This document shows, in pieces, positions 7,286-51,459 of a stretch of 64,000 nucleotides of DNA (position 1 is the stretch's first letter; the number at the start of each line of letters is the position of its first letter). The stretch lies in NCBI GenBank assembly GCA_009914755.4, contig CP086569.2, positions 10,976,001-11,040,000 of the forward strand, read 5' to 3'. Both the position numbers and the translations under genes were made by a program. The notes below the pieces were generated by a model, which saw only the letters and a list, made by a program, of their open reading frames with translations, was not told the origin of the DNA and did not search any database. Source of the DNA: the human T2T-CHM13v2.0 reference genome, Homo sapiens.

Positions 7286-7324
7286 ACTCCACTCCACTCC
7301 ATTCCATTCCATTCCATTCCCTGC

Positions 7325-13894: not shown

Positions 13895-14499
13895 ATTCCA
13901 TTCCATTCCACTCCATTCCATTCCTTTACATTCTATTCTACTCCACTCCACTCCACTCCATTTCGTTCAATTCCGTTCCATTCCATTTCGTTCCATTCCA
14001 TTCCAGTGTCTTCTGATCCACTACACTCAACTCCAGTACACTCCACTCCACTCCACTCTGTTCCATTCTGTTCTGTTCCTATACCTTCCCTTCCTTTCCT
14101 CTCCTTTCCATTCCAGTCCAATCCATTCCAATACACTCCACTTTATTCCACTCCACTCCACTCCTCTCCACTCCACTAAATTCCATTCCGCTCCATTTCA
14201 TTCCATTCCACTCCATTCCGTTCCATTCCACTCCATTTCACTCCTCACCATCTCCCTCCACTCCTTGCCAATTTACTCCTCTTCACTCCACTCCACTTTA
14301 TTCCTTTCCATTCTGCTCCTTTACATTCCATTACCCTCTATTCCAGTCCATTCCACTCCACTCCATTCCACTCCACTGTATTCCACTCCACTGCACTCCA
14401 TTTCACTCCACTCCGTTCCACTCCACTGCATCCTACTGCAGGCCCTTCCATTCCACTCCACTCCATCCCATTGCTTTCTACTTGATTCCTTTCCATTCC

Positions 14500-14576
14500 T
14501 TTATTTCGACTGGATCTCACTCTTTCACCCAGACTGGAGTGCTGTGGCACTATCTTAGCTAACATTTCATTTTACC
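14500..14576 (-). mobile_element. Alu 3'-end-derived fragment, subtype A
   Basis: tttatttcgactggatctcactctttcacccagactggagtgctgtggcactatcttagctaacatttcattttacc. Confidence 0.75.
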
Positions 14577-17298
14577 ATTCCATTCCATTCCATTCCATTT
14601 CATTCTATTTCATTCCATTCCATTCCATTAGACTCCACTGCACTCCCCTCCACTCTACTCCACTCCTCTCAATTCCACTCCACTCCATTCCATTCCATGC
14701 CATTCCAGTCCATTCCACTGAATTCCTATCCTCTCCCGTCAACTCCACTCCACTGCACACCACTATGTACCATTCCGTTCCATTTCATTCCGTCCCATTC
14801 CATTCCACTCCGTTCCATTCCATTCCATTCCACGCCATTCATTTCTGCTCCATTCCACTCCACTCCATTCCATTCCACTCCATTCCCTTCCATTCCACTC
14901 TACTCCTTTCCATTCCATTCCATTTCACACCACTACATTCCATTCCATTCCTCTCCATTCCTTTACATTCCACCACATTCCATTCCTTTCCATTCCACAC
15001 CAATCAACCCCAATCCACCCCAATCCACTTCACTCAACTCCACTCTGTTCCACTCCACTCCACCCCTCCACTTTCCATTCCATTGCTTTTTATTCCATTC
15101 CATTCCATTCCATTCCATTCCATTCCATTCCATTCCATTCCATTCCACTCCAATCCAATCCATTCCATTCCACACCACTCCACTCCACTCCATTCCATTC
15201 CACACCACTCCAATCCACTTCACTCCGTTCCTTTCCATTCCATTCCGTTCCATTCCATTCCATTCCATTCCGTACCGTTCCGTTCTGTTCCATTCCGTTC
15301 CATTCCGTTCCATTCCATTCCATTCCATTCCATTCCTTTCCATTCCACTCCATTCCAATGCACTCCATTCCACTCCATTCCATTCCACTCAAATCCACTC
15401 CTCTCCTCTCCACTCCGTTCCATTGTGTTCCATTCCATTCTATTCGATTCACTGCATTTCATTCCACTCCACTGCATTCAACTCCACATGAATGCGCTAC
15501 ACTCCCCCTCACATCACTCAATTTCATTTACTTCACTCCATTTCACTATATTCCATAGTATCCTTTACACTGCAATTCGATCTGATCCACTCCACTCCAC
15601 TCAACGCCTCTCCACTCCTCTCCACTCTAGTCCGTTTAACTCCACTCCATTCCATTTCATGCCATTCCATTCCCTTGCATTCCACTGCACTCCATCCACT
15701 CCACTCAATTCCACTCCACTTCACTCCATTCCACTCCACTCCTTTCTATTCCATTCCTTTCCGTTCTGTACCATTAAATTCCATTCCGTTCTATTCCATT
15801 CCATTTCACTCCATTCCATTCCACTCCACTCCATTCCTCTCCACTCCACTCCATTCTATTCTGTTCCATTCCACTCCATTACATTCAACTCCACTCCATT
15901 CCACTCCACTCCATTTCACTACTTTCCACTCTATTCCACTCCTCTCCACTACTGTCTGCAGCACTACATTCTTTCCACTTCATTCCATTCCATTCCTTTC
16001 CATTCCACTCCACACCACTCCACTCCACTTTGCTCCACTCCATTCCATTCCACTCCAGTCCATTCCTTCCAAACCATTCCATTCCACCCCACTCCACTCC
16101 ATTCCACTCCACTCCATTCCGTTCCACCGCACTCCACTCGACTCCACTCTATTCAATTCTATTCCATTCCATTCCACAGCCCTCCCTTCCATTCCACTCC
16201 ACTCCACTAAACTCCACTTCACTCCACTCCACTCTGCTCCACTCCACTCCACTGCATTCCTTTCCATTCCACTCCAATCCATTCCTTTGCATTCCTTTCC
16301 ATTCCATTGCTGTGCCTTCTGATCCACTCCACTAAACACCACTCTACTCAAGTCCATATCAATTTGTGCCGTTCCATTCCATTCCATTCCTTTCCATCCC
16401 ATTCCATTCTGTTCTATTCCATTCCATTCTACTCCATGCCATTCCATTCCACTCATTTCTACTCTACCTCACTCAACTCCACTGAACTGCACTACAATCC
16501 AGTACATAACACTCTACTCCGTTCCATTCAACTACACTCCATTCCATTCCTTTCCATTCCACACCAATACACTCCATTTCATAAAACCTTACTCCACTCC
16601 ATTCAATTCCATACCTTTTTGTTCCATTCCTTTCCACTCAATTCCATTCCACTCAACTCCATTCCGCTCTACTACACTCCATTCCAATCCTCTCCATCCC
16701 ATTCCATTCCATTCCATTCCATTCCGTTCCGTTCCATTCCATTCCATTCCAATCCATTCCATTCCATTGCATTCCACTGCACTCTGATCCAGTACATTCA
16801 TGTCCACTCCACTCCAGTCAATTCCATTCTCCTCTGTTCCATTCTTTTCCATTTCATTCCATTCTACTCCATTCCATTCCACTACACTGCATTTCACTAC
16901 ATTCCTCTCCATTCCACTACACTCCACTGCACTCTACTGCATTCCTTTGCACTCTATTTCATTCCATTCCACACCATTCCTTTTGATTGCATTCCACTCC
17001 ACTCCATTCCATTCTGTTCCACTTCATTCCATTTTATTCCACTCCACTCCTTTCAACTCCATTCCACTCCAATCCATTCCAATCTACTCCATTTCACTCC
17101 ACTATTCTCTGTTCCAATCAATTCCTTTCAATTCCACCCCATTCAATTCTATTCTATTCTTATCCATTCCACTCCTTTCCACTCCACTCAGTTCCACTCC
17201 ACTTTTCCTCTGCACTCCATTCCATTACACTACGTTCCTCTCCATTTAATTCCACCCCGGTCCATTCCTTTCCATTTTGTGGCATTCCATTCCATTCC

Positions 17299-17374
17299 TT
17301 TATTTCAACAGGATCTCACCTTTCACCGAGACTGCAGTGCAGTGGCAGAATCTTATCCCTCATTGCATTTCACC
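17299..17374 (-). mobile_element. Alu 3'-end-derived fragment, A/B mixed
   Basis: tttatttcaacaggatctcacctttcaccgagactgcagtgcagtggcagaatcttatccctcattgcatttcacc. Confidence 0.7.
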
Positions 17375-17614
17375 CTTCCATTCCATTCCATTCCACTGCT
17401 CTCCGATCCACTACACTCAACTCCACTCTACTCCACTCCACTCGGTTCCATTCCAATCCGTGCCATGCCCTTCTGTTCTGTTCCATTCCACTCCATTCTA
17501 TTCCACTCTACTCTATTCTACTGCAGTACATGTTACTCCATGCCACTCCATTACACTCCCCTCCACTACACTTCACTCCACTCCATTCCATTTCACTCCA
17601 TTCCACTACAATCC

Positions 17615-17690
17615 TTTATTTCGACTGAATCTCACTCTGACATGTAGACTGGATTGCATTGGCACAATCTTAGCACACATTTCGTTTCAG
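17615..17690 (-). mobile_element. Alu 3'-end-derived fragment, subtype A
   Basis: tttatttcgactgaatctcactctgacatgtagactggattgcattggcacaatcttagcacacatttcgtttcag. Confidence 0.7.
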
Positions 17691-18212
17691 CATTCCATTC
17701 CATTCCACTCCACTCCATTCCATTCCATTCCACTCTATTCCATTCCATTCCTTTCCACTGCACTCTGATCTACTGCATTCTACTTCATTCCACTCTACTC
17801 CATTCCACCCCACTCCACTCCATTCCATTCAGGTCCATTCCTTTCGGCTCTCTTCCATTCCACTCCATTTCATTCCACTCCTCCCCATTCCACTCTTCTC
17901 CATTCTGCTCCATTCCACTGCACTTCACTTCACTCCACTCCACTCCACTCCATTCCATTCCATTCCACTCCATTCAACTCCGTTGCTCTCTACTGCACTC
18001 CACTCCATTGCACTATACTCTACTCCATTGCATTTCACTCCACTGTTCTCCATTCCACTTCATTCCTTTCCATTCCTCTCCATTCCATTCTATTCCGCTC
18101 CATTCCACTCCAATTCATTCCACTCCATTCCATTCCACCCCATTCCACTCCATTCCATTCTATTCCACTCCATTACATTGCATTCTATTCTACTACATTC
18201 CATTCCACTGCA

Positions 18213-18285
18213 TTATTTCAACTGGATCTCACTCTGTTACTTAGACTTGAGTGCAGTCACACAATCTAATCTCACATTTCATTTC
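18213..18285 (-). mobile_element. Alu 3'-end-derived fragment, subtype A; paralog of 1529
   Basis: tatttcaactggatctcactctgttacttagacttgagtgcagtcacacaatctaatctcacatttcatttct. Confidence 0.7.
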
Positions 18286-18438
18286 TACATTCCATTCTAT
18301 TGCATTCCATTCTGTTCCGTTCCTTTCCATTCCACTCCATTCCATTCAACTGCACTCCATTTCATGCCATTCTGTTCCATTCCACTTCACTGCACTCTAC
18401 TCCACTCCATTCAATTCTACTCCATTACATTCCAATCC

Positions 18439-18515
18439 TTTATTTCTACTCAATCTCACTCTGTCACAAAGACTGGAGTGCAGTTGCACAATCTTAGCTC
18501 ACATTTCATTTCACC
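18439..18515 (-). mobile_element. Alu 3'-end-derived fragment, subtype A
   Basis: tttatttctactcaatctcactctgtcacaaagactggagtgcagttgcacaatcttagctcacatttcatttcacc. Confidence 0.75.
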
Positions 18516-18880
18516 ATTTCATTCCATTGGATTCCATTGGATTCCATTCCATTCCATTCCATTCCATTCAATTCCTTTCCATTCTACTGCACTCCGATCT
18601 GCTCCACTCAACTCCACTCCACTCCACTCTGTTCGGTGCCATTCCATTCCATTCCATTCCATTGCATTCCATTCCATTGCATTCCATTCCATTCCATTGC
18701 ATTCCATTCCATTCCATTCCATTTCATTCCATTCCATTCCGCTCCACTCAATTCCACTCCACTCCATTGCACTCCACTCCACTCCACTGCATTCTACTCC
18801 ACTCCACTCCACTCCATTCCACTCCACTCAATTCCACTCCACTCCATTCCATTACCTTCTTCTCTATGCTTTTCCATTCC

Positions 18881-18957
18881 TTTAATTCGTCCGGATCTTA
18901 CTCTGTGATCCCGACTGGAGTGCAGTGGCACAATCTTAGCTCCCATTTCCTTTCACC
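18881..18957 (-). mobile_element. Alu 3'-end-derived fragment, subtype A; paralog of 1951
   Basis: tttaattcgtccggatcttactctgtgatcccgactggagtgcagtggcacaatcttagctcccatttcctttcacc. Confidence 0.7.
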
Positions 18958-19074
18958 AATCATTTCCATTCCATTCCATTCCATTCCATTCCATTCCATT
19001 CCATTCCATTCCCCTCTACTCCACTACAATCCACGATGCTACACTCCACTCCATTGCACTCCATTCTATCCCGT

Positions 19075-19175
19075 TCCGTTCCATTCCATTCCATTCTTTT
19101 CCATTCCATTCCATTCCATTCCATTCCATTCCATTCCATTCCATTCCATACCATTCCATTCCATTCCATTCCACT
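19075..19175. repeat. Near-perfect (CCATT)n run, ~19 units
   Basis: uninterrupted ccatt pentamers with single ccata variant. Confidence 0.85.
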
Positions 19176-19502
19176 GCACTCCCATCCACTCCACTCAACT
19201 CCACTCCACTTTACTCTGCTCCACCGCCTACCATACGGTTACATTCTGTTGCGTTCCATTCCATTCCATTCTATTCCACTCCACTCCATTCCGCTCCTCT
19301 CCATTGCACTTCATTCCACTCCACTCCACTGTGCTCCACTCCATTTCGTTCCACTCATTCCATTCAACTCCATTTCACTCCATTCCATTCCACTCCACTC
19401 CATTCCACTCCACTCCACTCCACACCACTTTAATCCATTCTTATCACTTACTCTCCATTCCATGACATTCTATTCCACTCTACTCCATTCCATTGCATTC
19501 CT

Positions 19503-19577
19503 TTATTTCGACATCATCTCACTCTTTTTCACAGGCTAGAGTGCAGTGACCAAATCTCACCTCACATTTCATTTCAC
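19503..19577 (-). mobile_element. Alu 3'-end-derived fragment, subtype B; first unit of 2.2-kb HOR copy 1
   Basis: tttatttcgacatcatctcactctttttcacaggctagagtgcagtgaccaaatctcacctcacatttcatttcacc; paralog of 21797. Confidence 0.75.
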
Positions 19578-19824
19578 CATTCCATTCTATTCCATTCCAT
19601 TCCATTCCATTCCACTCAACAGCTTTGCACACCCCTCCACTCCACTCTATTCCATTTCATTGCATTCCATTCCATCCCATTCCATTCCACTCTATTCCAT
19701 TCCACTCCACTCCATTCCACACCACTTCTCTCCATTCCTTTCTATTCCATTCCATTCCCTAACCTTTCATTCCACTCCATTCCACTCCACTTTGTTCCAC
19801 TCCATTCCAGTTAATTCTATTCCT

Positions 19825-19899
19825 TCTTTTGACGGGATCACACTCTGCCATACAGGCTGAAGTGCAGTGGCACAATCTCATCTAACATTTCATTTCACC
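19825..19899 (-). mobile_element. Alu 3'-end-derived fragment, subtype B
   Basis: tcttttgacgggatcacactctgccatacaggctgaagtgcagtggcacaatctcatctaacatttcatttcacc; paralog of 22109. Confidence 0.75.
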
Positions 19900-20196
19900 A
19901 TTCCATTGGATTCCAGTCCATTCCACTTCATTCCACTCCAACCCACTCAAGTCCACTTCACTCCATTCTATTCCATTCCAATGTGCTCCACTACACTCAT
20001 CTACTCTCCATTCCATCCAACTCCATTCCACTGCATTCCATTCCACTCCACTCCACTCCATTCCTTTCCTTTCCTTTATGTCACATTCCACTCCACTACA
20101 ATCTGCTCTATTCCATTCCATTCCATTCCATTCCATTCCATTCCATTCCATTCCATTCCATTCTATTCCATTCAAGTACCCTCCATTACCTTAGAT

Positions 20197-20275
20197 TTCT
20201 TTCTTTCGACAGGATCTCATTCTTGCACCCAGGCTGGAATGCAGTGGAACAATCTCAGCTCACATTTCATTAAAC
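20197..20275 (-). mobile_element. Alu 3'-end-derived fragment, subtype B
   Basis: tttctttcgacaggatctcattcttgcacccaggctggaatgcagtggaacaatctcagctcacatttcattaaacc; paralog of 22438. Confidence 0.75.
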
Positions 20276-20619
20276 CATTGCATTGCATTCTATTCCATTC
20301 CATTTCATTCAATTCCATTACATTCCATTCCATTTTCTTCCGTTCCGTTCTGTTCCACTCCACACCACTACACTCAATTCCACTCCACTCCACTCAATTC
20401 CACTCCACTCCACCCCAGTCCACTCCATTCCACTACACTCCACTCCATTCCATGCCATCCCATTCCATTCCTCTCCAATCCACACCACTCCACTCCAGTC
20501 CACTCCATTCTATTCCATTTCATCCAATTCCACTCTACTCCATTCCATTCCATTCCATTCCATTCCATTCCATTCCATTCCATTCCATTCTATTCCATTC
20601 CATTAAACTTCATTCCATT

Positions 20620-20704
20620 TCTTTCCCTAGTTGCTACAGAATCTCACTATGTGACACAGGCTGGAGTGTAATAGCAAAATCTCATCTCTCATAGCATTTC
20701 ACCA
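20620..20704 (-). mobile_element. Alu 3'-end-derived fragment, subtype B, diverged
   Basis: ctagttgctacagaatctcactatgtgacacaggctggagtgtaatagcaaaatctcatctctcatagcatttcacc; paralog of 22836. Confidence 0.65.
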
Positions 20705-20787
20705 TACCATTCCTCACCATTCCACTTCACTTCACTTCACTGCACTCTTCACCAATGCACGCCATTCCACTCCATTCCATTCCATTC

Positions 20788-20856
20788 CTTTGTTTCGACA
20801 GGATCTCACTCTGTTACCGAGGCTGGAGTGCAGTGGCACAATCTCAACTCACATTC
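20788..20856 (-). mobile_element. Alu 3'-end-derived fragment, subtype B, short 3' end
   Basis: tttgtttcgacaggatctcactctgttaccgaggctggagtgcagtggcacaatctcaactcacattcc; truncated paralog at 22985-23040. Confidence 0.7.
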
Positions 20857-21066
20857 CATTCCATTCCATTTCATTCCACTCCATTCAATTCCACTCCAAT
20901 CCACTCCATTCCATTCCATTCCATTCCACTCCACTCCACTACACTTCATTCTGTTCCATTTCACTCCACTCTACTCCCCTCCAATCCACTCCATTCCACT
21001 GCATCCAATTCCACTCCACTCCACTCCAGTCCACCTCATTCCATTCCAGCCCCTTACATTCCATTC

Positions 21067-21144
21067 CTTTCTTTTGACAGTATCTCACTCTCTCACCCAG
21101 GCTACATTGCAGTGGCACAATCTCCGCCCACATTTCATTACACC
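21067..21144 (-). mobile_element. Alu 3'-end-derived fragment, subtype B
   Basis: tttcttttgacagtatctcactctctcacccaggctacattgcagtggcacaatctccgcccacatttcattacacc; paralog of 23156. Confidence 0.75.
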
Positions 21145-21464
21145 ATTCTATTCCATTACATTCCATTGCATTCCATTCCATTGCATTCCATTCTATTGTA
21201 TTCCATGGCATTCCATTTCGTTCAATTCCATTCCAGTCCACTCCATTCAACTACAATTAAATCCACTCCATTCCTTTTCATTCCATTCCATTCTATTCCT
21301 TTCCACTCCAGTCCACTCCACTGCACTCCACTCCACTACTCTCCACTCCATTCCAGTCCACTCCATCCCATTCTATGCCACTTCATTCCCTTCCACTCCA
21401 ATCTACTCCACTCCTGTCCACTCCACTCCACTGCATTCCATTCCACTCCATTCCATTCCATTCC

Positions 21465-21542
21465 TTTCTTTCGACAGGGTCTCTCTCCCTCACCCAGTTT
21501 GCAGTGCAGTGGAACAATATCAACTCGCATTTCATTTCACCT
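21465..21542 (-). mobile_element. Alu 3'-end-derived fragment, subtype B
   Basis: tttctttcgacagggtctctctccctcacccagtttgcagtgcagtggaacaatatcaactcgcatttcatttcacc; paralog of 23565. Confidence 0.75.
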
Positions 21543-21796
21543 TTCCATTTTATTCCATTCCATTCCATTCCATTCTATTCCATTCCATTCTATTCCATTC
21601 CACTCCACTCCACTCAATTCCACTCCACTCCACTCCTCACCACTCCACTCCATTGCAATCCATCCCAATCCATTCCATGACATTCCATTCCACTCCATTC
21701 CACTGCACTCCATTCAACTTCATTCCACTCCATTCCACTGCATTCGTTTCCACTCCACTCCATTCCATTCCGTTCTACTCCATTCCATTCCATTCC

Positions 21797-21873
21797 TTTA
21801 CTTCGACATCATCTCTCTCTGTTACACAGGCTGGAATACAGTGGCCCAATCTCAGCTCACATTTCATTTCACC
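21797..21873 (-). mobile_element. Alu 3'-end-derived fragment, subtype B; first unit of HOR copy 2
   Basis: tttacttcgacatcatctctctctgttacacaggctggaatacagtggcccaatctcagctcacatttcatttcacc. Confidence 0.75.
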
Positions 21874-22108
21874 ATTCCATTCCATTTCATCCCATTCCAT
21901 TCCATTCCACTCAACAGCACTACACACCCCTCCACTCCATTATATTCCATTCCATTCCATTCCTTCCAATTCGATTCCACTCTATTCGACTCCACTCCAC
22001 TCTGTTCCACACGACTCCTCTCCACTCCATTCCATTCCATTCCATAACATTCTATTCCACTCCATTCCACTCCACGTTATTCCACTCCATTCCAGCCAGT
22101 TCTATTCC

Positions 22109-22184
22109 TTTTTTCGACAGGATCTCACTCTGTCATACAGGCTGCAGTGCAGTGGCAGAATCTCATCTCACATTTAATTTCACC
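22109..22184 (-). mobile_element. Alu 3'-end-derived fragment, subtype B
   Basis: ttttttcgacaggatctcactctgtcatacaggctgcagtgcagtggcagaatctcatctcacatttaatttcacc. Confidence 0.8.
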
Positions 22185-22437
22185 ATTCCATTGCATTCCT
22201 TTCCATTTCACTCCATTCCACTCCACTCCACTCAAGTCTTCTTCGCTCCATTCCATTGCATTCCACCGTGCTCTACTCCATTCCTCTCCTTTCCATTCCA
22301 CCCAGTTCCATTCCACTCCATTCCATTCCACTCCACTGCATTCCGTTCCTTTCCATTAAGTGTTATTCCACTCCACTTCACTCCGCTCCGCTCCACTCCA
22401 TTCCATTCCATTCCATTACACACCACTACATTACATT

Positions 22438-22516
22438 CCTTTCTTTCGACAGGATATCACTCTTTCATCCAGGCTGGAATTCAGTGTCACACTCTCAGCT
22501 CACATTTTATTTAATC
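22438..22516 (-). mobile_element. Alu 3'-end-derived fragment, subtype B
   Basis: tttctttcgacaggatatcactctttcatccaggctggaattcagtgtcacactctcagctcacattttatttaatc. Confidence 0.75.
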
Positions 22517-22835
22517 ATGGCATTCCATTTCATTCCATTCCATTTCGTTCCATTCCATTCCATTCCATTACATTTTGTTCCATTCCTTTCTGTTCCACTC
22601 CACTCCTCTACACTCAATTCCACTCCACTCCACTCCAGTCTACTCCAATCCTCTTCACTCCATTCCATTCCTTGCCATCCCATTCCATTCTACTCCATTC
22701 CACACCGCTCCACTCCACTCCACTCCACTTCATTCTACTACATTTCATCCCCTTCCATTCCACTCCATTCCATTCCATTCCATTCCATTCCATTCCATTC
22801 CATTCCATTCCATTCCATTAAACTCCATTGAAATT

Positions 22836-22917
22836 ATTTCCGTAGTTTCTACAGAATCTCACTCTGTGACACAGGGTTGAGTGCAATAACAATATCTCAT
22901 CTCGCATATCATTTCAC
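22836..22917 (-). mobile_element. Alu 3'-end-derived fragment, subtype B, diverged
   Basis: tttccgtagtttctacagaatctcactctgtgacacagggttgagtgcaataacaatatctcatctcgcatatcatttcacc. Confidence 0.65.
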
Positions 22918-22984
22918 CATGCCATTTATCACCATTCTGCTCCACTTCACTCCACTGCACTCCACACCAATCTACGCCATTCCA

Positions 22985-23040
22985 CTCCATTCCATTCCAC
23001 TCCATTCCATTCCATTCCTTTGTTTCAACAGGATCTCCAC
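22985..23040 (-). mobile_element. Truncated remnant of Alu-derived fragment (5' T-tail part only)
   Basis: ccattcctttgtttcaacaggatctccactccgctcc; same upstream context as full copy at 20788, body deleted. Confidence 0.5.
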
Positions 23041-23155
23041 TCCGCTCCACTCCAATCCACTCCATTCCACTGCATCCCATTCCACTCCACTCCACTCCAC
23101 TCCACCACACTCCACTCCACTCCACTCCATTCCATTCCACTCCCTTACATTCCAT

Positions 23156-23234
23156 TATTTTATTTCAACAGGATCTCACTCTCTCACTCAGGCTAGAGTG
23201 CAGTGGCACAATCTCAGCTCATATTTCATTTCAC
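23156..23234 (-). mobile_element. Alu 3'-end-derived fragment, subtype B
   Basis: ttttatttcaacaggatctcactctctcactcaggctagagtgcagtggcacaatctcagctcatatttcatttcacc. Confidence 0.8.
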
Positions 23235-23564
23235 CATTCTATTCCATTCCATTCCATTGCATTCCATTCCATTCCATTCCATTTCATTCAATTCTATTCC
23301 ATTTCATTCAATTCTATTCCACTGCACTCCATTCATCTACAATACATTCCACTCCACTCCATTTCATTACTTTCTATTCTATTCCTTTCCACTCCAGTCC
23401 ACTCCACTGCACTCCACTCGACTCCACTCCACTCCACTACTCTCCACTCCATTCCAATCTACTCCATCCAATTCTATTCCACTTCATTCCCCTGCACTCC
23501 ACTCTACTCCTCTCATGTCCAGTGCACTCCACTGCATTCCATTCCACTCCATTCAATTCCATTC

Positions 23565-23643
23565 CTTTATTTCAACAGGATCTCACTCCTTCACCCAGTT
23601 TGCAGTGCAGTGGAACAATCTCAACTCACGTTTCATTTCACCT
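23565..23643 (-). mobile_element. Alu 3'-end-derived fragment, subtype B
   Basis: tttatttcaacaggatctcactccttcacccagtttgcagtgcagtggaacaatctcaactcacgtttcatttcacc. Confidence 0.75.
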
Positions 23644-23793
23644 TTCCATTTTATTCCATTCCATTCCATTCCATTCCATTCCATTCCATTCCATTCCATT
23701 CCATTACACTCCACTCCGGTCAATTCCACTCCACTTCACTCCACTCCATTCATTTCCATTCCAATCCATTCCACTCCATTCCCTTCCTTTCCT

Positions 23794-23867
23794 TTCTTTC
23801 GACAGGATCTCACTCTGTCACACAGTCTGAAGTGCAGTGGCAAAATCTCGGCTCACATTTCATTTCT
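23794..23867 (-). mobile_element. Alu 3'-end-derived fragment, subtype B; first unit of HOR copy 3
   Basis: tttctttcgacaggatctcactctgtcacacagtctgaagtgcagtggcaaaatctcggctcacatttcatttc. Confidence 0.8.
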
Positions 23868-24032
23868 CCATTCCATTCCATTCCATTCCATTCTATTCTA
23901 TTCCATTCCATTCCATTCCATTCCACTCCACTCCACTCAGTTCCATTCCATTCCACTCCACTCGACTTCACTCTAATCCTCTCCATTCAATTTCATTCCA
24001 TTCCATTCCACTCCTATCCATTCCATTACTGT

Positions 24033-24106
24033 CTTTCTACAGGATCTCACTCTGTCACCCAGTCTGGAGAGCAGTGACACTGTCTCAGCTCACATTTCTT
24101 TTCACC
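24033..24106 (-). mobile_element. Alu 3'-end-derived fragment, subtype B
   Basis: ctttctacaggatctcactctgtcacccagtctggagagcagtgacactgtctcagctcacatttcttttcacc. Confidence 0.75.
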
Positions 24107-24357
24107 ATTCCTTTGCATTCCATTCCATTGCATTCCATTACATTCCGTTCCATTCCATTCTACTCCTCTCCTCTCCACTCCATCCCATTCCATACCATTT
24201 TATTCCACTCCACTCCACTCTATAGCATTCCCTGCCATCCCATTCCACACTCTTCCACCCCAGTCTGCACCACTCCACTGCACTCTAATGAATTCCATTC
24301 CATTCCATTCCATTCCATTCCATTCCATTCCATTCCATTCCATACCACTCCATTACT

Positions 24358-24425
24358 TTCTGTCGAGAAAATGTGACTCTGTCACACTGGCTGGAGTGCA
24401 GTGACGCAATTTCAGCCCATATCCA
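24358..24425 (-). mobile_element. Alu 3'-end-derived fragment, subtype B, diverged
   Basis: tttctgtcgagaaaatgtgactctgtcacactggctggagtgcagtgacgcaatttcagcccatatccactcc. Confidence 0.65.
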
Positions 24426-24679
24426 CTCCATTTCATTGCATTCCATTCTATTCCTCTCCATTCCAGTCCTCTCCATTGCACTCCACTGAATTCCACTCCA
24501 ATCCACTGCATTCCATCCCATTGCATTCCACACCAATTTACTCCACATCTCTGTACTCCACTTTACTCCATTCCATTCCACTCCCTACCATTCCATTCCC
24601 CTCCATTCCACTCCACTCCAGTCAACATCTCTCCACTCCATTCCATTCCATTCCATTCCACTCTATTCCATTCCATTCA

Positions 24680-24760
24680 TTTCTTTTGAAATTTTGTCAC
24701 TGTGTCACAGTTTGTGGTGCAGTGGAAGAATCCCAGTTCATATTTTATTTCACTGTAGCC
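24680..24760 (-). mobile_element. Alu 3'-end-derived fragment, subtype C
   Basis: tttcttttgaaattttgtcactgtgtcacagtttgtggtgcagtggaagaatcccagttcatattttatttcactgtagcc; paralog of 35932. Confidence 0.65.
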
Positions 24761-25383
24761 TTCCATTCCATTCCACTCCATTCTTTTCTTTTAAACTCCA
24801 CTCCCATTCAGTCCACTCCACTCCATTCCATTTCACTCCACTCCCCTCCATTCCACTCAACTCCACTCCGTCCCATTCCATCCCATTCCATTCCAATTCA
24901 TTGCTCTCAACTCCACTCCACCCCACTCCACTTCTTTCCATTCCATGCCATTCCATTCCACTCCACTGCACTTCAATCCATCCCATTCCATTCCACTACA
25001 TTCCACTCCACTCCACTCCAATCCATTCCACTTCTTTGCAGTCCATTCCATTCCAGTCCACTCCACTCCAATCCATTTAACTGCAGTCCACTCCACTCCA
25101 TTCCATCCCTTTTGATTCCACTCCTCTCCACTCCATTCGATTCCATTCCACTAAATTCCATTCCGTTCCATTGAATTCTAATCCACTCCACTCCTCTACA
25201 CTCCACTCCATGCCATTACATTCCATTACATTCCAGTCCATAGTCCTGCATTCCACTCCACTCCACTCCACTATATTCCATTCCATCCCATTCCACTCCT
25301 CTCCGCTCTAATCCACTCCACTCCACTCCTCTCCACTCCATTCCATTCCATGCCATTTCACTCCATTCCTTTCCATTCCGTGC

Positions 25384-25456
25384 TTTTGACAGCTTCTCAC
25401 TCTGTCACACAGGCTGGAGTGCAGTGGCACAATCTCAGCTCACGTTGCATTTCACC
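25384..25456 (-). mobile_element. Alu 3'-end-derived fragment, subtype B
   Basis: ttttgacagcttctcactctgtcacacaggctggagtgcagtggcacaatctcagctcacgttgcatttcacc. Confidence 0.8.
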
Positions 25457-26270
25457 ATTCCATTGCATTCTTTTGCATTGCCTTCCACTCCATTCCATTC
25501 CATTCCATTCCATTCCATTCCATTCCATTCCATTCCATTCCATTCCACTACACTCAGCTGCATTCCATTCCATTCCACTCCACTCCACCCCTATGAACTC
25601 CACTCGACTCCACTCCACCACATTCTACTCCTTTCCATTCCACTCCATAACATTCTATTCCAATACATTCCACTCCACTCCACTCTATTCCATTCCAGTC
25701 CACTCTACTAAACTCCCCTCCATTCCGCTCAACTCCACTCCTTCCCATTCCATCCTATTCCATTCCAATTCATTCCCCTCCACTCCACTCCGCTTCTTTC
25801 AATTCCATGCCATTCCATTCCACTCCACTCCACTTCAATCCATCCCATTCCATTCCACTACATTCCACTCCACTGCACTCCAATCCATTCCACTTCTTTA
25901 CAGTCCATTCCATTCAAGTCCACTCCACTCCAATCCATTTAACTCCACTCCACTGCACTCCATTCCATCCCTTTCCATTCCACTCCTCTCCACTCCATTC
26001 GATTCCATTCCATTAAATTCCATTCCTTTTCATTGAATTCTAATCCACTCCACTCCTCTACACTCCACTCCATGCCATTCCATTCCATTACATTCCTGTC
26101 CAAAGTCCTGCATTTCACTCCACTCCACACCACTGCATTCCATTCCATTCCATCTCATTCCACTCCATTTCACTCGTCTCCACTCTACTCCACTCCACTC
26201 CACTGCACTCCTCTCCACTCCATTCCATTCCATTCCATACCATTTCATTCCATTCCTTTCCGTTCCGTGC

Positions 26271-26374
26271 TTTTGACAGCATCTCAGCCTGTCACACAGG
26301 CTGGAGTGCAGTGGCACAATCTCAGCTCAGGCTGGAGTGCAACGGCACAATTTCAGCTCACATTTCATTTCACC
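26271..26374 (-). mobile_element. Alu 3'-end-derived fragment, subtype Bd (internal ~30-bp duplication)
   Basis: ttttgacagcatctcagcctgtcacacaggctggagtgcagtggcacaatctcagctcaggctggagtgcaacggcacaatttcagctcacatttcatttcacc. Confidence 0.8.
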
Positions 26375-26744
26375 ATTCCATTCCATTCCATTCCATTCCA
26401 TTCCATTCCATTGCATTCAATTCCACTCTATTCCTCTGTACTCCACTCCACTCTACTCCACTCCGTTCCATTCCACTCCATTCCACTCTATTCCACTCCA
26501 CTCCACTTTACTTTATTCCACTCCATTCCATTCCATTCCACTCCATTCCAATCCAATGCACTCCAATCGACTCCACTACACTCAATTCCGTTCAACTTTA
26601 TACCATTGTATTCCACTCCATTCATATTAACACCACTCCACTCTACTCCACTCCAGTCCACTCCACTCCGCTCTGTTCCATTCCAATCCACTCCTCTCCA
26701 CTGCACTCCATTCCATTTCATTCTGCTCCATTCCTTTCCATTCC

Positions 26745-26826
26745 TTTCTTTTGACAGGGTCTCACTCTTTCAGCCAGGTTAGAGTGCAGTGGAATAAACT
26801 CCGTTCACATTTTATTTCATCATAGC
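26745..26826 (-). mobile_element. Alu 3'-end-derived fragment, subtype D
   Basis: tttcttttgacagggtctcactctttcagccaggttagagtgcagtggaataaactccgttcacattttatttcatcatagc; paralog of 37091. Confidence 0.7.
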
Positions 26827-27158
26827 ATTCCATTCCATTCCATTTCCTAAAATTCCATTCAATTCCAGTCCACTCCAATCAACTCCACTCTACCTCATTC
26901 AATCCTATTCAATTCCACTCCACTCCATTCGATTCCATCCCATCCCATTCCATTCCATTCCATTCCACTCCACTCTTCTCCACTCCACTCCATGCCATTC
27001 CATTCCTTTCTATTCCAGTACATATTACTCCATTCCTCTCCACTCCACTCCACTACATTCCATTCCATTTCATCCCATTCCACTCCATTCCTCTCTTCTC
27101 CACTCTACTCCACCCCATTCCATTCCATTCCATTTTACTCCATTAAATTCCATTCCTC

Positions 27159-27264
27159 TCTTTAGACAGAATTTTACTCTGTCACACAGGCTGGAGTGCA
27201 GTGACACAGTCTCAGCTCAGGCTGGAGTTCAGTGGCATAATATCAGCACACATTTCATTTCACC
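27159..27264 (-). mobile_element. Alu 3'-end-derived fragment, subtype Bd (internal duplication)
   Basis: tctttagacagaattttactctgtcacacaggctggagtgcagtgacacagtctcagctcaggctggagttcagtggcataatatcagcacacatttcatttcacc. Confidence 0.75.
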
Positions 27265-27324
27265 ATTCCATTCCATTCCACTTTATTCCATTCTACTCCA
27301 CTCCACTCCACTCCATTCCATTCC

Positions 27325-27406
27325 TTTCTTTCAAAAGGAGCTCACTCTTTCACCTAGGTTAGAGTGCAGTGGAACAATCTCAGCTCACATTTCATTTCAC
27401 CATAGC
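27325..27406 (-). mobile_element. Alu 3'-end-derived fragment, subtype D
   Basis: tttctttcaaaaggagctcactctttcacctaggttagagtgcagtggaacaatctcagctcacatttcatttcaccatagc. Confidence 0.7.
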
Positions 27407-27633
27407 ATTCAATTCGATTCTGTTCCATTCCCTTCAATTCCATTCCACTCCATTCCACTCCAATGTACTCCACTCGACTCCACTCCAATTCACTCCTCTC
27501 CACTCCATTCCATTGTACATCATACCATTCTGTTCCACTCCATTCACATGCTCTCCACTGCACTCTATTCCACTCCAGTCCACTCCACTCCACTCCATTT
27601 CACTCTACTCCATTCAACTCCACTCCATTCCAT

Positions 27634-27711
27634 TCTTTTGACAGGTTCTCACTCTTTCACACAGGTTAGAGTGCAGTGGAACAACCTGAGCTCACATTTC
27701 ATTTCACCATA
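27634..27711 (-). mobile_element. Alu 3'-end-derived fragment, subtype D
   Basis: ttcttttgacaggttctcactctttcacacaggttagagtgcagtggaacaacctgagctcacatttcatttcaccatag. Confidence 0.75.
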
Positions 27712-27848
27712 GAATTCCATTCCATTCCATTGCATTCCCTAGAATTCCATTCCATTCCAGTCCACTCCACTCCATTCCACTCCACACCACTTCTTTCCAT
27801 CCCATTCTGTTCCACTCCATTCCACTCCCATCCACTCCATTGCACTTC

Positions 27849-27948
27849 TTTCCATTCCATTCCATTCCATTCCATTCCGTTCCATTCCATTCCATTCCAT
27901 TCCATTCCATTCCATTCCATTCCATTCCATTCCATTCCACTCCAATCC
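27849..27948. repeat. Near-perfect (CCATT)n run, ~20 units
   Basis: uninterrupted ccatt pentamers with a single ccgtt. Confidence 0.85.
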
Positions 27949-28056
27949 TCTCCACTCCACTCCTGTCCACTCCATTGCGTTCCATTCACGCCAATCCACT
28001 CAACTTATTTCCATTCCATTCCATCCTATTCCATTCCACTCCTTTCCATTCCATTC

Positions 28057-28131
28057 ATTTTCTTCAACAGGATCTCTCTGTCACCCAGGCTGGAATGCAG
28101 TGGCACAATCTCAGCTCACGTTTCGTTTCAC
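28057..28131 (-). mobile_element. Alu 3'-end-derived fragment, subtype B with small internal deletion
   Basis: ttttcttcaacaggatctctctgtcacccaggctggaatgcagtggcacaatctcagctcacgtttcgtttcacc. Confidence 0.75.
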
Positions 28132-28486
28132 CATTCAATTGCATTCTTTTGCATTGCATTCCACTCAATTCCATTCCATCTCATTCCATTCCATTCCGTC
28201 CATTGCATTCCACTCCACTCAGCTGCATTCCATTCCATTCCATTCCACTCCACTCCACTCCACTCCTATGCACTCCCCTCGATTCCTTTCCACTCCACCA
28301 AAGTCCACGCCATTCCATTCCACTCCATAATATTCTATTCCAATATATTCCCCTCCACTCCACTCTATTCCATTCCAGTTCACTCCACTCCACTCCAGTC
28401 CACTCCACTCCACCCCACTCCAGCCCACTCCACTTCACTCCACTCCATTCCACTCCATTCCATTCCACTCCATTTCATTCCATTCC

Positions 28487-28568
28487 TTTCTTTCGACAGC
28501 ATATCACTCTGTCACCCAGGTTACAGTGTAGTTGAAAAATATCAGCTCATATTTCATTTCACCATAGC
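28487..28568 (-). mobile_element. Alu 3'-end-derived fragment, subtype D-like
   Basis: tttctttcgacagcatatcactctgtcacccaggttacagtgtagttgaaaaatatcagctcatatttcatttcaccatagc. Confidence 0.7.
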
Positions 28569-28864
28569 ATTCCGTTCCATTCCATTCCATTCCATTCCAT
28601 TCCATTCTATTCCATTCCATTGCCTTCCATTCCTTTAACTTCCATTCCATTCCTGTCCACTACACTCCACTCCACTTCACTCCACTCCAATCCACTCCAC
28701 TCCGCTTCATTCCATCCCATTCCATTCCACTCCATTCCACAACACTCCAGTCCACTCAACTTCTTTCAATTCAATCCCATTCCATTCTACTCCAGTCCAC
28801 TCCACTCCACTCCTTTCCATTCCACTACATTGCATTCCTTTCCACTCCTTTCCATTCCATTCCT

Positions 28865-28940
28865 TTCTTTTGACAGAATCTGATTCTTTCACCCAGGCTG
28901 GAGTGCTGTCGCACAATCTGAGCCCACATTTCATTTCACC
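28865..28940 (-). mobile_element. Alu 3'-end-derived fragment, subtype B
   Basis: ttcttttgacagaatctgattctttcacccaggctggagtgctgtcgcacaatctgagcccacatttcatttcacc. Confidence 0.75.
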
Positions 28941-29209
28941 ACTCCATTGCATTCCATTCCTTTGCATTCCATGCCATTCCATTTTTTTTCCATTCCACTG
29001 CACTCCACTCCACTCTACTCCACTCTGCTGCATTCCATTCCATTCCATTCCATTGCATTCCATTCCATTCCATTCCATTCCATTCCACTCTACTCCACTC
29101 CTCTGCACTCCATCCCATTGCATCCCATCCCATTCCACACCATTCCACTGCACTCCACTCAACTGCATTCCATTCAATTCCATTACATTCCACTCTATTT
29201 CATTCTGTG

Positions 29210-29287
29210 CTTTTCTGTCAACAAGATCTCACTCTGTCACAGTGGCTGTAGTGTAGTGGCAGAATCTCAGCTCACATTTCATTCTAC
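29210..29287 (-). mobile_element. Alu 3'-end-derived fragment, subtype B
   Basis: cttttctgtcaacaagatctcactctgtcacagtggctgtagtgtagtggcagaatctcagctcacatttcattctac. Confidence 0.7.
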
Positions 29288-29474
29288 ATTCCATTCCATT
29301 CCCTTCCACTCCATTCAATCCCATTGTATTCCACTCCATTCATCTCCACTTCACTGAACTCCCTTCCACTTCATTCCATTAAACTCCACAACATTCCATT
29401 CTACTCCACGCCACTCCACTCCACTCCACAACACTCCATTCCATTTCATTCCACTGTATTCCATTCCATTCCTT

Positions 29475-29547
29475 TTCTTTTACAGTATATCACTCTGTTA
29501 CACAGGCTGGAGTGCTTTAGCGCAATCTCAGCTCACATTGCCTTCAC
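29475..29547 (-). mobile_element. Alu 3'-end-derived fragment, subtype B
   Basis: ttcttttacagtatatcactctgttacacaggctggagtgctttagcgcaatctcagctcacattgccttcacc. Confidence 0.7.
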
Positions 29548-29818
29548 CATTCCATTGCATTCCATTCCATTCTGTTCCATTCCAAATCACTACATTCCAT
29601 TTAGTTCCTATCCATTCCACTGCACTCCTCTCCACTCCACTGCACGCCATTCCATTCCATTCCATTCCAGTCCAGTCCACTCCACTACGCCTTATTCCAT
29701 TACATCCCGATTCATTCCACTCCATTCCACTCCTCTCCACTCTACTCCACTCCACTCCTCTCCACTCTATTCCGTTCTGTTTCATTCCATTCCATTCCAT
29801 TCCTTTGCATTCCATTCC

Positions 29819-29894
29819 TTTCTTTTGACAGGATCTCACTCTGTCACCCAGGCTGATGTCCAGCGGCATAAACTCAGGTGACATTGCAATTCAC
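29819..29894 (-). mobile_element. Alu 3'-end-derived fragment, subtype B
   Basis: tttcttttgacaggatctcactctgtcacccaggctgatgtccagcggcataaactcaggtgacattgcaattcacc. Confidence 0.7.
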
Positions 29895-30075
29895 CATTGT
29901 ATTCCATTCCATTTCACTCCATTCCATTCCATTCCATTCCACTCCACTCCACTCCACTCCACTCAATTCCATTCCACGCAATCCCATTTCATTCCACTCC
30001 ACTCCATTCCATGCCCTTCCATCCAATTCCATTCTATTCCGTTGTATTCCAATCCATTCCATTCCATTCAAATCC

Positions 30076-30151
30076 TTTCTTTCAAAGTGTTCTCACTTAG
30101 TCACACATGGTGGAGTTCAGTGGGAAAATCTGAGCTCACATTTCATTTCAC
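30076..30151 (-). mobile_element. Alu 3'-end-derived fragment, subtype B
   Basis: tttctttcaaagtgttctcacttagtcacacatggtggagttcagtgggaaaatctgagctcacatttcatttcacc. Confidence 0.7.
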
Positions 30152-30245
30152 CATTCCATTGCACTCCATTCCACTCCACTCCACTCCACCCCACTCCACT
30201 GCATTCCACTCCATTCCATCCCAATCCATTCCTTTCCACTCCATT

Positions 30246-30323
30246 CCATTCCTTTCCTTTCCTTCATCAGGATATCACTGTTTCACACAGGGTGGAGTGC
30301 AGTGGCACAATCTTAGTTCACAT
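30246..30323 (-). mobile_element. Alu 3'-end-derived fragment, subtype B
   Basis: ctttccttcatcaggatatcactgtttcacacagggtggagtgcagtggcacaatcttagttcacatttcatttcaac. Confidence 0.7.
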
Positions 30324-30374
30324 TTCATTTCAACTTTCCACTCCATAGCATTTCATTGCAATCCGTTTCTTTCC

Positions 30375-30456
30375 ATTTTTTTTCGTTTGACAGTTTCTCA
30401 CTCTGTCACTCCGGGTGGAGTGCAGTCGCATAATCTCAGCTCACATTACATTTGAA
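30375..30456 (-). mobile_element. Alu 3'-end-derived fragment, subtype B, with 8-nt T-run tail
   Basis: ttttttttcgtttgacagtttctcactctgtcactccgggtggagtgcagtcgcataatctcagctcacattacatttgaac. Confidence 0.75.
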
Positions 30457-30757
30457 CTTTGCATTACATTCCATGCCACTCCATTTCATTTCATTCGATT
30501 CCATTCCATTCCACTCTACTCAATTCCACTCCACTCCACTACATTCCATTTCATACCATTCCATTCCACTCCATTCCACTCTAATCCACTCAATTCCATT
30601 CCATCCCATTACATTCCACTCCACTCCACTCCATTCCATCCCACTCCATCCCATTTCATTCCACACCACTACACTCCACACCACTCCATTTCCTGCCATA
30701 CCATCCCATTTCATTCCATTCCATTTGATTCCTTTCCACTCCTTTGCATTCCATTCC

Positions 30758-30834
30758 TTTATTTCGACAGTATCTCAATCTGTCACAAAGTCTGGAGTGC
30801 AGTGGCACAATCTCAGCTCACATTTCATTTCACC
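30758..30834 (-). mobile_element. Alu 3'-end-derived fragment, subtype B
   Basis: tttatttcgacagtatctcaatctgtcacaaagtctggagtgcagtggcacaatctcagctcacatttcatttcacc. Confidence 0.8.
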
Positions 30835-30959
30835 ATTTCATTTCATTCCATACCACTCCACTCCACTACACCACACTCCACTCCAGTCCACTTCACTCCA
30901 CTCCACTCCATTAAATCCCAATGCATTCCATTCCTGTCTATTCCTATCCATTCCTCTGC

Positions 30960-51454: not shown

Positions 51455-51459
51455 ATTCC

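What the first reader, a model, noticed from the sequence alone, without database searches (positions are those of the whole stretch)
19503..25383. A ~2.2-kb higher-order repeat (3 copies) built from 6-7 Alu-marked submonomers
Submonomers pair in conserved order across copies, each pair sharing private variants (e.g. CGACATCATCTC at 19503 and 21797; CATACAGGCTG...AATCTCATCT at 19825 and 22109; CCAGTTTGCAGTGCAGTGGAACAAT at 21465 and 23565). Offsets shrink from 2.30 to 1.92 kb across the block, showing indels inside the pentamer spacers. A truncated remnant (22985-23040) corresponds exactly in position to the short full-length submonomer at 20788. A multi-monomer HOR on top of a composite unit is more structure than usually attributed to HSat3.
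Basis: seen in the sequence. Interest (0 to 1): 0.5.

Follow-up and report, generated by a model that had tools for sequence, protein, structure and literature searches.

The report
Old two-copy duplication in HSat3-like satellite
Inside a long, decayed pentamer satellite studded with Alu-tail fragments, one ~2.3-kb block of seven units was duplicated once, head to tail, long ago; it is a real but ordinary local duplication, not a three-copy higher-order repeat.

Summary
The whole 64-kb window is a (CATTC/CACTC)n satellite carrying about 120 same-strand ~60-78-bp fragments of an Alu 3' end. The spacing of these markers is irregular.

**What holds up.** Copies 1 and 2 are real. About 19385-21680 and 21680-23780 are collinear and 87.7% identical over aligned columns. 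Six of seven units are reciprocal best partners among 122 units. The truncated marker at about 23017 is the stub of unit e.

**What does not.**
- The third copy (23794-25383) scores at background against copy 1 (rank 53 of 99 matched controls) and copy 2 (rank 7 of 99).
- Its units pair with units elsewhere in the window, and it carries none of the private variants.
- No dominant periodicity exists in the window.
- The ~2.2-kb signal is one of several local or dispersed duplications with unrelated offsets (872 bp, 1.56 kb, 5.2 kb, ~10.4-11.3 kb).

**Reading.** This is a single old X→XX tandem duplication, later eroded by substitutions, 5-bp slippage indels and one ~165-bp deletion. HSat3 with Alu fragments, multi-kb nested repeats and hyper-local periodicity are all already described. 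Interest is low.

The parts
1..64000 (+). Context: a continuous (TTCCA/CTCCA)n satellite array with about 120 Alu-3'-end-derived markers, all in one orientation. Median marker spacing is 424 bp (5th-95th percentile 179-1355 bp).
   Evidence: TRF gives period 5 over 4-64000. GC is uniform at 0.44-0.46 with strong negative GC skew. Marker map. CATTC occurs 3537 times and CACTC 2339 times. Spacing statistics.
19385..21680 (+). Copy 1 (X) of the duplicated block, ~2295 bp, with units a-g. The left limit is approximate (19340-19460).
   Evidence: Collinear alignment with copy 2. In-phase identity at offset 2295 appears from ~19340-19360. Overall 1847 matches, 259 mismatches and 277 gap columns, giving 87.7%.
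21681..23780 (+). Copy 2 (X'), now ~2100 bp, with units a'-g'. It is shortened by pentamer-multiple indels and one ~165-bp deletion that removed most of marker e' and part of its spacer.
   Evidence: Homology to copy 1 ends at ~21680/23780.
19506..19583 (-). Marker a (Alu sense strand is the minus strand). Carries the private variant CGACATCATCTC, shared only with a'.
19827..19904 (-). Marker b. Private variant CATACAGGCTG, shared only with b'.
20204..20271 (-). Marker c
20631..20705 (-). Marker d, a diverged form. CTACAGAATCTCACT is shared only with d'.
20793..20860 (-). Marker e, full length in copy 1.
21072..21148 (-). Marker f
21469..21546 (-). Marker g. Private variant CCAGTTTGCAGTGCAGTGGAACAAT, shared only with g'.
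21801..21878 (-). Marker a'
22112..22189 (-). Marker b'
22444..22512 (-). Marker c'
22846..22920 (-). Marker d'
23017..23037 (-). Marker e' stub (CCTTTGTTTCAACAGGATCTC). It is the first ~21 nt of marker e; the rest is deleted.
   Evidence: CCTTTGTTTC occurs only at 20787 and 23017. Alignment.
23163..23239 (-). Marker f'
23570..23647 (-). Marker g'
23794..25383 (+). It is not a copy of X; it is the original right flank of the duplication. Its left part belongs to a local ~230-bp tandem run (23528-24247). Its right part (24594-25383) has its true paralogues at +872 bp and +11.25 kb.

Best explanation
The feature is a single, old, head-to-tail tandem duplication (X→XX) of a ~2.3-kb stretch of a decayed, non-homogenised HSat3-type satellite.

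The satellite's basic composite unit is the last ~57 nt plus the A-tail remnant of one Alu, followed by a variable run of CATTC/CACTC pentamers. That unit had already been amplified and had diverged before this event. The duplicated stretch happened to span seven such units.

Both breakpoints (~19385 and ~21680) lie in pentamer spacers, not in markers. This points to out-of-register pairing of pentamer runs, either unequal sister-chromatid or homologue exchange, or replication template switching. That mechanism is inferred, not shown.

Afterwards the two copies diverged by about 12% substitutions, many 5-bp-multiple slippage indels and one ~165-bp deletion that truncated marker e'. No further amplification followed, so no higher-order array formed. 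The same process, with other block sizes, produced the other duplications scattered through the window. The sequence has no indication of a function beyond being satellite DNA.
For: - Collinear homology 19466-21676 ↔ 21761-23782 in three BLAST pieces with offsets 2295, 2240 and 2091. Full alignment.
- 87.7% identity over 2106 aligned columns.
- The C1-C2 score is 2190, against 1061 mean and 1491 maximum for random segment pairs.
- Six of seven units are reciprocal best hits among 122 units. This is the only 6-unit diagonal run in the window; permuted unit orders gave a longest run of 4 at most.
- Markers are mutual nearest neighbours in 5 of 6 pairs, with p-distance 0.078-0.167 against a mean of 0.251.
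- Private variants are present exactly twice.
- Homology ends at 21680/23780 and starts at ~19340-19460, which matches 21680-2295 = 19385 and so an exact X→XX junction.
- 16 of 28 gaps are multiples of 5.
- No dominant period appears.
- Literature: HSat3 units include TE fragments and nested repeats evolve hyper-locally (10.1101/2021.07.12.452052). HSat3 is intermingled with Alu fragments without local homogenisation, and evolves by unequal exchange (10.1101/2022.12.01.518724).
Against: - The left boundary cannot be fixed to better than ~±60 bp, because in-phase pentamer runs give 70-80% identity by themselves.
- The mechanism (unequal exchange versus replication slippage or template switching) cannot be distinguished from sequence alone.
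- The ts:tv ratio of 121:138 between the copies is odd for simple neutral decay. It may reflect local misalignment or conversion from other units.
- C3 ranks 7th of 99 against C2, slightly high. This is explained by the similarity of unit 23797 to its neighbour g' rather than by collinearity.
Confidence: 0.85

Rival explanations
1. A genuine higher-order or nested tandem repeat array of three or more copies of a ~2.2-kb unit, with the third copy heavily decayed.
For: - C2 vs C3 ranks 7th of 99 controls.
- Unit 24034 is the second-best partner of c' at 0.93, around the 96th percentile.
- The third block starts with a marker exactly where copy 2 ends.
Against: - C1 vs C3 ranks 53rd of 99.
- No C3 unit has a C1 or C2 unit as its best partner, and the weak similarities are not in order.
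- In-order pairs are 79-83% identical, which is background.
- None of the private variants has a third occurrence.
- The right half of C3 has clear paralogues elsewhere, at 88.6-94.4% identity.
- No 2.2-kb period exists outside this pair.
Confidence: 0.05
2. The similarity is a chance product of low-complexity pentamer sequence plus a shared marker consensus.
For: Any two segments of this satellite align at ~79% identity. Near-consensus units such as 7073, 23797 and 30762 score well against everything.
Against: - The score is about 10 sd above matched controls.
- There are six collinear reciprocal best hits, while permutations never exceeded a run of 4.
- 12-25-nt private variants occur exactly twice.
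Confidence: 0.01
3. An assembly artefact, meaning a false duplication of one block.
For: Satellite arrays are prone to misassembly (general knowledge).
Against: The copies differ by ~12% substitutions plus 28 indels and a 165-bp deletion. False duplications produce near-identical copies.
Confidence: 0.02
4. The two blocks became similar by gene conversion between pre-existing neighbouring stretches, not by duplication.
For: Conversion is thought to act in satellites (general knowledge). The low ts:tv ratio and patchy identity could reflect mosaic conversion.
Against: - The homology is exactly head to tail, with the end of X abutting the start of X'.
- It covers the whole 2.1-2.3 kb, with unit number and order preserved.
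- The hybrid g unit of copy 1 (211 bp of g plus ~120 bp matching the sequence upstream of a) is what a duplication junction predicts.
Confidence: 0.05

Closest known systems
HSat3 arrays intermingled with Alu fragments (chrY and acrocentric short arms), Rhie et al., 10.1101/2022.12.01.518724
   Same: - A pentamer (CATTC-derived) satellite with interspersed short Alu fragments.
- The fragments are not locally homogenised: mean marker divergence here is 25%.
- Evolution by unequal exchange.
- Tandem ACTCC (=CACTC) pentamers, 40% of the pentamers here, are reported mainly on chromosomes 13, 14, 15, 21, 22 and Y (PMC11305138).
   Different: - I could not map the window to any assembly, so species, chromosome and subfamily are untested.
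- The paper calls the fragments AluY.
Nested tandem repeats (NTRs) of HSat2/3, Altemose et al., 10.1101/2021.07.12.452052 and PMC4022460
   Same: A multi-kb repeat unit built on a degenerate pentamer repeat, with irregular internal structure, TE fragments inside the unit, and periodicity that differs locally within an array.
   Different: Described NTRs (3.6-kb DYZ1, the 1.77-kb chr1 HSat2 unit, the 1366-bp pTRS-47 clone) are many-copy and homogenised. DYZ1 units are mostly more than 98% identical. Here there are only two copies at ~88%.
Alpha-satellite higher-order repeats
   Same: An ordered set of sub-units is repeated as a block. Orthologous sub-units are more alike than neighbouring ones.
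   Different: HORs have similar-length monomers, many copies and very high inter-copy identity. Here the units are 162-427 bp, there are two copies, and identity is 87.7% against ~81% background.
HSat1B / DYZ2 composite unit (Alu subunit plus AT-rich sequence)
   Same: A single ancient Alu piece became part of a satellite unit and was amplified with it.
   Different: The satellite backbone is different (AT-rich, 2.5-kb homogeneous unit). The Alu portion is much larger, and the copies are highly homogenised.

Membership tests
HSat3 (CATTC/GGAAT-derived pentamer satellite) | Sequence dominated by CATTC (GGAAT) pentamers in tandem | tested here: met
   TRF gives period 5 with consensus TTCCA over 4-64000. 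CATTC occurs 3537 times and CACTC 2339 times in 64 kb.
HSat3 (CATTC/GGAAT-derived pentamer satellite) | Assignment to one of the 11 HSat3 subfamilies through subfamily-specific 24-mers (Altemose 2014) | tested here: inconclusive
   None of the 14 published example 24-mers (11 HSat3, 3 HSat2) occurs exactly. The nearest are HSat3A2 and HSat3A4 at 1 mismatch. Only one example 24-mer per subfamily was available, so this neither assigns nor excludes a subfamily.
HSat3 (CATTC/GGAAT-derived pentamer satellite) | Human (or great-ape) pericentromeric or acrocentric origin | not testable with these tools
   No primate genome collection was available. The junction 24-mer is absent from prokaryotic genome contigs. 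It is present in at least 120 metagenome contigs, presumably host carry-over.
HSat3-Alu-fragment composite arrays (Rhie 2023) | Short Alu fragments interspersed in the pentamer array | tested here: met
   About 120 markers at 1.9 per kb, all in one orientation. The consensus aligns to the last ~57 nt of Alu plus the A-tail, with differences mostly at CpG sites. Rfam gave no SRP/7SL hit, which is not surprising for fragments this short.
HSat3-Alu-fragment composite arrays (Rhie 2023) | No local homogenisation of the Alu fragments | tested here: met
   Mean pairwise marker p-distance is 0.251. Adjacent units are no more alike than distant ones: adjacent mean score 0.73 versus 0.70 overall.
Higher-order repeat (alpha-satellite sense) | A discrete number of monomers of similar length | tested here: not met
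   Units in the block are 321, 377, 427, 162, 279, 397 and 332 bp.
Higher-order repeat (alpha-satellite sense) | Many tandem copies giving an array-wide period | tested here: not met
   Two copies only. No dominant period in k-mer interval spectra; every peak is 3% or less.
Higher-order repeat (alpha-satellite sense) | Inter-copy identity far above inter-monomer identity | tested here: inconclusive
   Orthologous units are 84-90.5% identical, against 70-85% (mean 81%) for non-orthologous units. This is higher, but not by the margin seen in active HORs.
Nested tandem repeat (Altemose 2021) | A multi-kb unit of irregular internal structure, derived from a simple repeat and repeated in tandem | tested here: inconclusive
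   The unit type fits, but there are only two copies. It is the minimal case, better described as one tandem duplication.
Simple tandem segmental duplication | Head-to-tail adjacency, collinearity and shared derived variants that are absent elsewhere | tested here: met

The most novel reading that the evidence does not exclude
The window could represent an HSat3-type subfamily not captured by the 14 catalogued subfamilies. It has a ~60:40 CATTC:CACTC mix, no exact match to any published diagnostic 24-mer, and an AluJ-like rather than AluY-like marker. Its layered, datable block duplications (31 bp within a marker, then ~890 bp, then a ~10-kb-distant copy, plus the 2.3-kb X→XX and an 872-bp duplication) would then give an unusually readable record of how a pentamer satellite grows by successive unequal exchanges.
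Probability: 0.07. Interest if true: 0.3.

Novelty: already known. Interest (0 to 1): 0.1.

Why it matters
It matters little. It is one more example of the local duplication and decay already described for HSat2/3 arrays. Its practical value is as a caution: in low-complexity satellites, a run of markers at roughly the right spacing can look like an extra repeat copy to the eye, and only matched controls separate real copies from background. The private variants shared by the two copies could serve as locus-specific markers for this stretch if the array is ever studied for structural polymorphism.

Tried and rejected
- **Regex fuzzy search for markers** timed out. Replaced by blastn-short.
- **Rfam scan of 19000-26000**, run to confirm a 7SL/Alu origin of the marker, gave only one chance-level snoRNA hit (E=6.8). 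The fragment is too short for the SRP model.
- **Altemose-2014 diagnostic 24-mers** gave no exact hit, so no subfamily could be assigned.
- **Prokaryotic genome contigs** had 0 hits for the junction 24-mer.
- **120 metagenome contigs of the same family** were fetched. None matches the window above ~94% over more than ~150-290 bp, and none carries the a-g block. They give family context only.
- **A deeper, decayed HOR-like unit order across the window.** Only runs of 3 units were found, at unrelated offsets. The apparent link 7806-8663 ↔ 23570-24034 is at background identity when aligned directly: 82% over aligned columns and 70% with gaps.
- **TRF** is limited to periods up to 500 here and 2000 at most, so it cannot see a 2.3-kb period. 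It did find the local 237-bp run at 23528-24247.
- **Molecular-clock dating** was considered and dropped. Markers differ by 25% on average, far more than neutral decay since any Alu insertion would give, so a neutral clock does not apply.
- **Literature.** Jarmuz 2007 (PMC1821104) is not held. The HSat3 transcription-factor paper has nothing on Alu fragments or nested repeats.
- **ORF, promoter and tRNA tools** were not used. They do not apply to a primate satellite.


Full report
**What the window is.** TRF reports one period-5 array (consensus TTCCA) from 4 to 64000. GC content (0.44-0.46) and GC skew (-0.69 to -0.83) are uniform throughout. CATTC occurs 3537 times and CACTC 2339 times. The classical 10-mer CAACCCGAGT is absent, and CpG is depleted (620 observed, 1340 expected).

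A blastn-short scan with a marker consensus finds 120 hits, all on the + strand, with irregular spacing. After merging the split hits from the 31-bp internal duplications and adding two hand-placed markers, I worked with 122 units. The median unit is 424 bp, with 5th-95th percentiles of 179-1355 bp. Unit lengths favour 2 mod 5 (54 of 117), as expected for a fixed marker plus whole pentamers.

The marker consensus is TTTATTTCGACAGGATCTCACTCTGTCACCCAGACTGGAGTGCAGTGGCACAATCTTAGCTCAC, followed by a conserved ATTTCATTTCACCATTCC. Its reverse complement aligns to the last ~57 nt of an Alu plus the start of the A-tail, and most differences fall at CpG sites. One orientation and the same fragment ends in nearly all copies imply a single ancestral Alu piece amplified together with the satellite, rather than repeated insertions.

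**Checking the observation.**
- Semi-global alignment of 19503-21796 against 21797-23793 gives 88.2% identity on aligned columns and a score of 2190. Thirty random segment pairs gave a mean of 1061 and a maximum of 1491.
- A BLAST self-comparison shows three collinear pieces with offsets 2295, 2240 and 2091.
- With boundaries refined to ~19340-21690 against 21640-23790, there are 1847 matches, 259 mismatches and 277 gap columns, giving 87.7%.
- In an all-against-all comparison of 122 marker-to-marker units, six of the seven pairs (a/a', b/b', c/c', d/d', f/f', g/g') are reciprocal best partners. Their normalised scores are 1.17-1.36, against an all-pairs mean of 0.70, sd 0.12 and 99th percentile 1.04.
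- The seventh pair, e/e', is weak because e' is truncated.
- In per-cent terms, orthologous units are 84-90.5% identical on aligned columns (81-86% with gaps). Non-orthologous units within a copy are 70-85%, mean 81% (61-80%, mean 71%, with gaps).
- Using the markers alone, 5 of 6 pairs are mutual nearest neighbours (p-distance 0.078-0.167 against a mean of 0.251).
They occur 0-1 times in 340 kb of related loci.
- The 'truncated remnant' is also correct. CCTTTGTTTC occurs only at 20787 and 23017. In copy 2 the marker stops after CAGGATCTC and runs straight into sequence that matches copy 1 about 165 bp further on.

**The third copy is not there.**
- C1 vs C3 and C2 vs C3 give 79-81% identity and scores of 803-859, which is background.
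- I compared C3 with 98 control segments of the same length, each anchored on a marker. C3 ranks 53rd of 99 against C1 and 7th of 99 against C2. A real copy scores 1590-1825, against control means of 928-968 with sd 67-82.
- The best partners of the C3 units lie elsewhere: 23797 pairs with its neighbour 23570 and with 7073, 24034 with 8663, 24361 with 34042, 24684 with 35936, and 25384 with 28060. Marker distances agree.
- In-order C2→C3 unit pairs are 79-83% identical, indistinguishable from within-copy background.
- No private variant has a third occurrence.
- The slightly high rank against C2 comes from unit 23797 resembling its neighbour g'. TRF sees a local 237-bp run at 23528-24247.
- The right half of 'copy 3' has real paralogues elsewhere. 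24840-25442 matches 25712-26329 at 94.4% (89% with gaps), and 24594-25431 matches 35846-36704 at 88.6%.

**Anatomy of the event.** Homology ends at ~21680 in copy 1 and ~23780 in copy 2. At offset 2295, in-phase similarity begins at ~19340-19360 and is strong from 19460. Since 21680 - 2295 = 19385, the data fit an exact head-to-tail X→XX duplication, with X ≈ 19385-21680.

Both breakpoints lie in pentamer spacers, not in markers. This explains two details:
- Unit g of copy 1 (332 bp) is a junction hybrid. Its first ~211 bp are g, and its last ~120 bp match the sequence upstream of marker a.
- g' (227 bp) keeps its original continuation into the ~230-bp units 23797 and 24034.

After the event, the offset between the copies shrank from 2295 to 2101 bp through 28 indels, 16 of them multiples of 5, plus the larger deletion in e'. 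Pentamer slippage and out-of-register exchange are inferred mechanisms. The sequence shows the products, not the process.

**No array-wide period.**
- K-mer interval spectra in the manner of NTRprism, at k=10, 12 and 16, show no dominant peak. The largest bins (100, 200, 850 and 2100 bp) each hold 3% or less.
- Rare-14-mer distance counts show that the 2.1-2.2-kb signal comes from 17-28 kb only.
- The unit-level matrix has one 6-unit diagonal run (C1/C2) and four 3-unit runs, all at different offsets. Permuted unit orders gave a mean of 0.64 runs of three or more units.
- BLAST lists further duplications with offsets of 872 bp, 1558 bp, ~5.2 kb, ~10.4-11.3 kb and 24.7 kb.

The picture is a patchwork of independent block duplications of various sizes and ages in an old, heterogeneous array.

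**Related sequences.** The Alu/satellite junction 24-mer GCTCACATTTCATTTCACCATTCC occurs 9 times in the window, with 0 expected. It occurs 0 times in 596 Gb of prokaryotic genomes.

Those contigs total 340 kb and are clearly the same family:
- 1.80 markers per kb, against 1.88 in the window.
- One orientation in 119 of 120 contigs.
- Median spacing 388 bp, with the same bias towards 2 mod 5.
- A CATTC:CACTC ratio of 57:43.
- Twenty contig pairs from different samples are at least 98% identical over 800 bp or more, as expected for carry-over from one host genome.

None matches the window above ~94% over more than ~150-290 bp, and none carries the a-g block. The 2.3-kb unit is therefore not a recurrent family-wide unit in this sample.

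**Comparison with what is known.**
- Multi-kb units have been documented for decades, such as the 3.6-kb DYZ1 unit, a 1.77-kb chr1 HSat2 unit and the 1366-bp pTRS-47 clone (PMC4022460).
- Rhie et al. describe HSat3 blocks 'intermingled with Alu fragments' on chrY and the acrocentrics, with 'no evidence for local homogenization' and with evolution by unequal exchange (10.1101/2022.12.01.518724).
- Tandem ACTCC (=CACTC) pentamers are reported mostly on chromosomes 13, 14, 15, 21, 22 and Y (PMC11305138).

The window fits that description, so an acrocentric or Y-type HSat3 origin is a reasonable inference. I could not map it to any primate genome. None of the 14 published example 24-mers is present exactly, so subfamily membership is open.

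**Verdict.** There are two copies, not three, with conserved unit order, private variants, a truncated remnant and 5-bp indels. The HOR interpretation is only partly supported, and the claim of unusual structure is not supported. The best reading is one old tandem duplication in a known kind of composite satellite (confidence 0.85). Novelty: already known. Interest: about 0.1.

Noticed in passing
window 26297-26360, 27187-27247, 36683-36746, 37546-37609: Four markers share the same 31-bp internal tandem duplication (CAGGCTGGAGTGCA.TG.CACAAT.TCAGCT x2). Units 26271/27161 lie ~890 bp apart and pair with 36657/37520 about 10.4 kb away. This implies a nested history: the 31-bp duplication first, then a ~890-bp tandem duplication, then a block copy ~10 kb away.
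   Followed up: partly
window 24840-25442 and 25712-26329: An 872-bp-offset tandem duplication at 94.4% identity on aligned columns (89% with gaps), the youngest duplication in the neighbourhood. The paralogous block at 35846-37671 has only one copy of it: the offset drops from 11252 to 10392. The 872-bp event therefore post-dates the ~10-kb block copy.
   Followed up: partly
window 48478-50928 vs 53758-56085; 49372-49926 vs 50930-51494: Two further block duplications: one at ~5.2-kb offset and ~78% identity, and one at 1558-bp offset and 84% identity. They show that duplications of different sizes occur all along the array.
   Followed up: no
window 14582-17302, 42420-45300, 57417-59178, 60447-62800: Marker-free stretches of 1.8-2.9 kb of pure CATTC/CACTC pentamers interrupt the otherwise ~1.9-per-kb marker density.
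   Followed up: no
all ~120 markers, e.g. window 23797-23874: The marker consensus fits an AluJ-like 3' end (...GACCCTGTCTC) slightly better than an AluS/Y-like one (...GACTCCGTCTC), whereas the T2T-Y paper labels HSat3-associated fragments AluY.
   Followed up: partly
window 19340-23790 (C1/C2 alignment): Substitutions between the two copies are 121 transitions to 138 transversions. That is a low ts:tv ratio for neutral primate DNA. It may come from pentamer mis-registration in the alignment or from patchy conversion by other units.
   Followed up: no
loci L001-L120 (metagenome contigs): At least 120 metagenome contigs belong to this satellite family, presumably host DNA assembled with the microbes. 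Twenty contig pairs from different samples are at least 98% identical over 800 bp or more. One contig has markers on both strands, which could be an inversion or a chimeric assembly.
   Followed up: partly
window 23528-24247: TRF finds a local 237-bp period (3.1 copies, 79% matches) spanning g', 23797 and 24034. This short run of ~230-bp units is the original right flank of the 2.3-kb duplication.
   Followed up: partly
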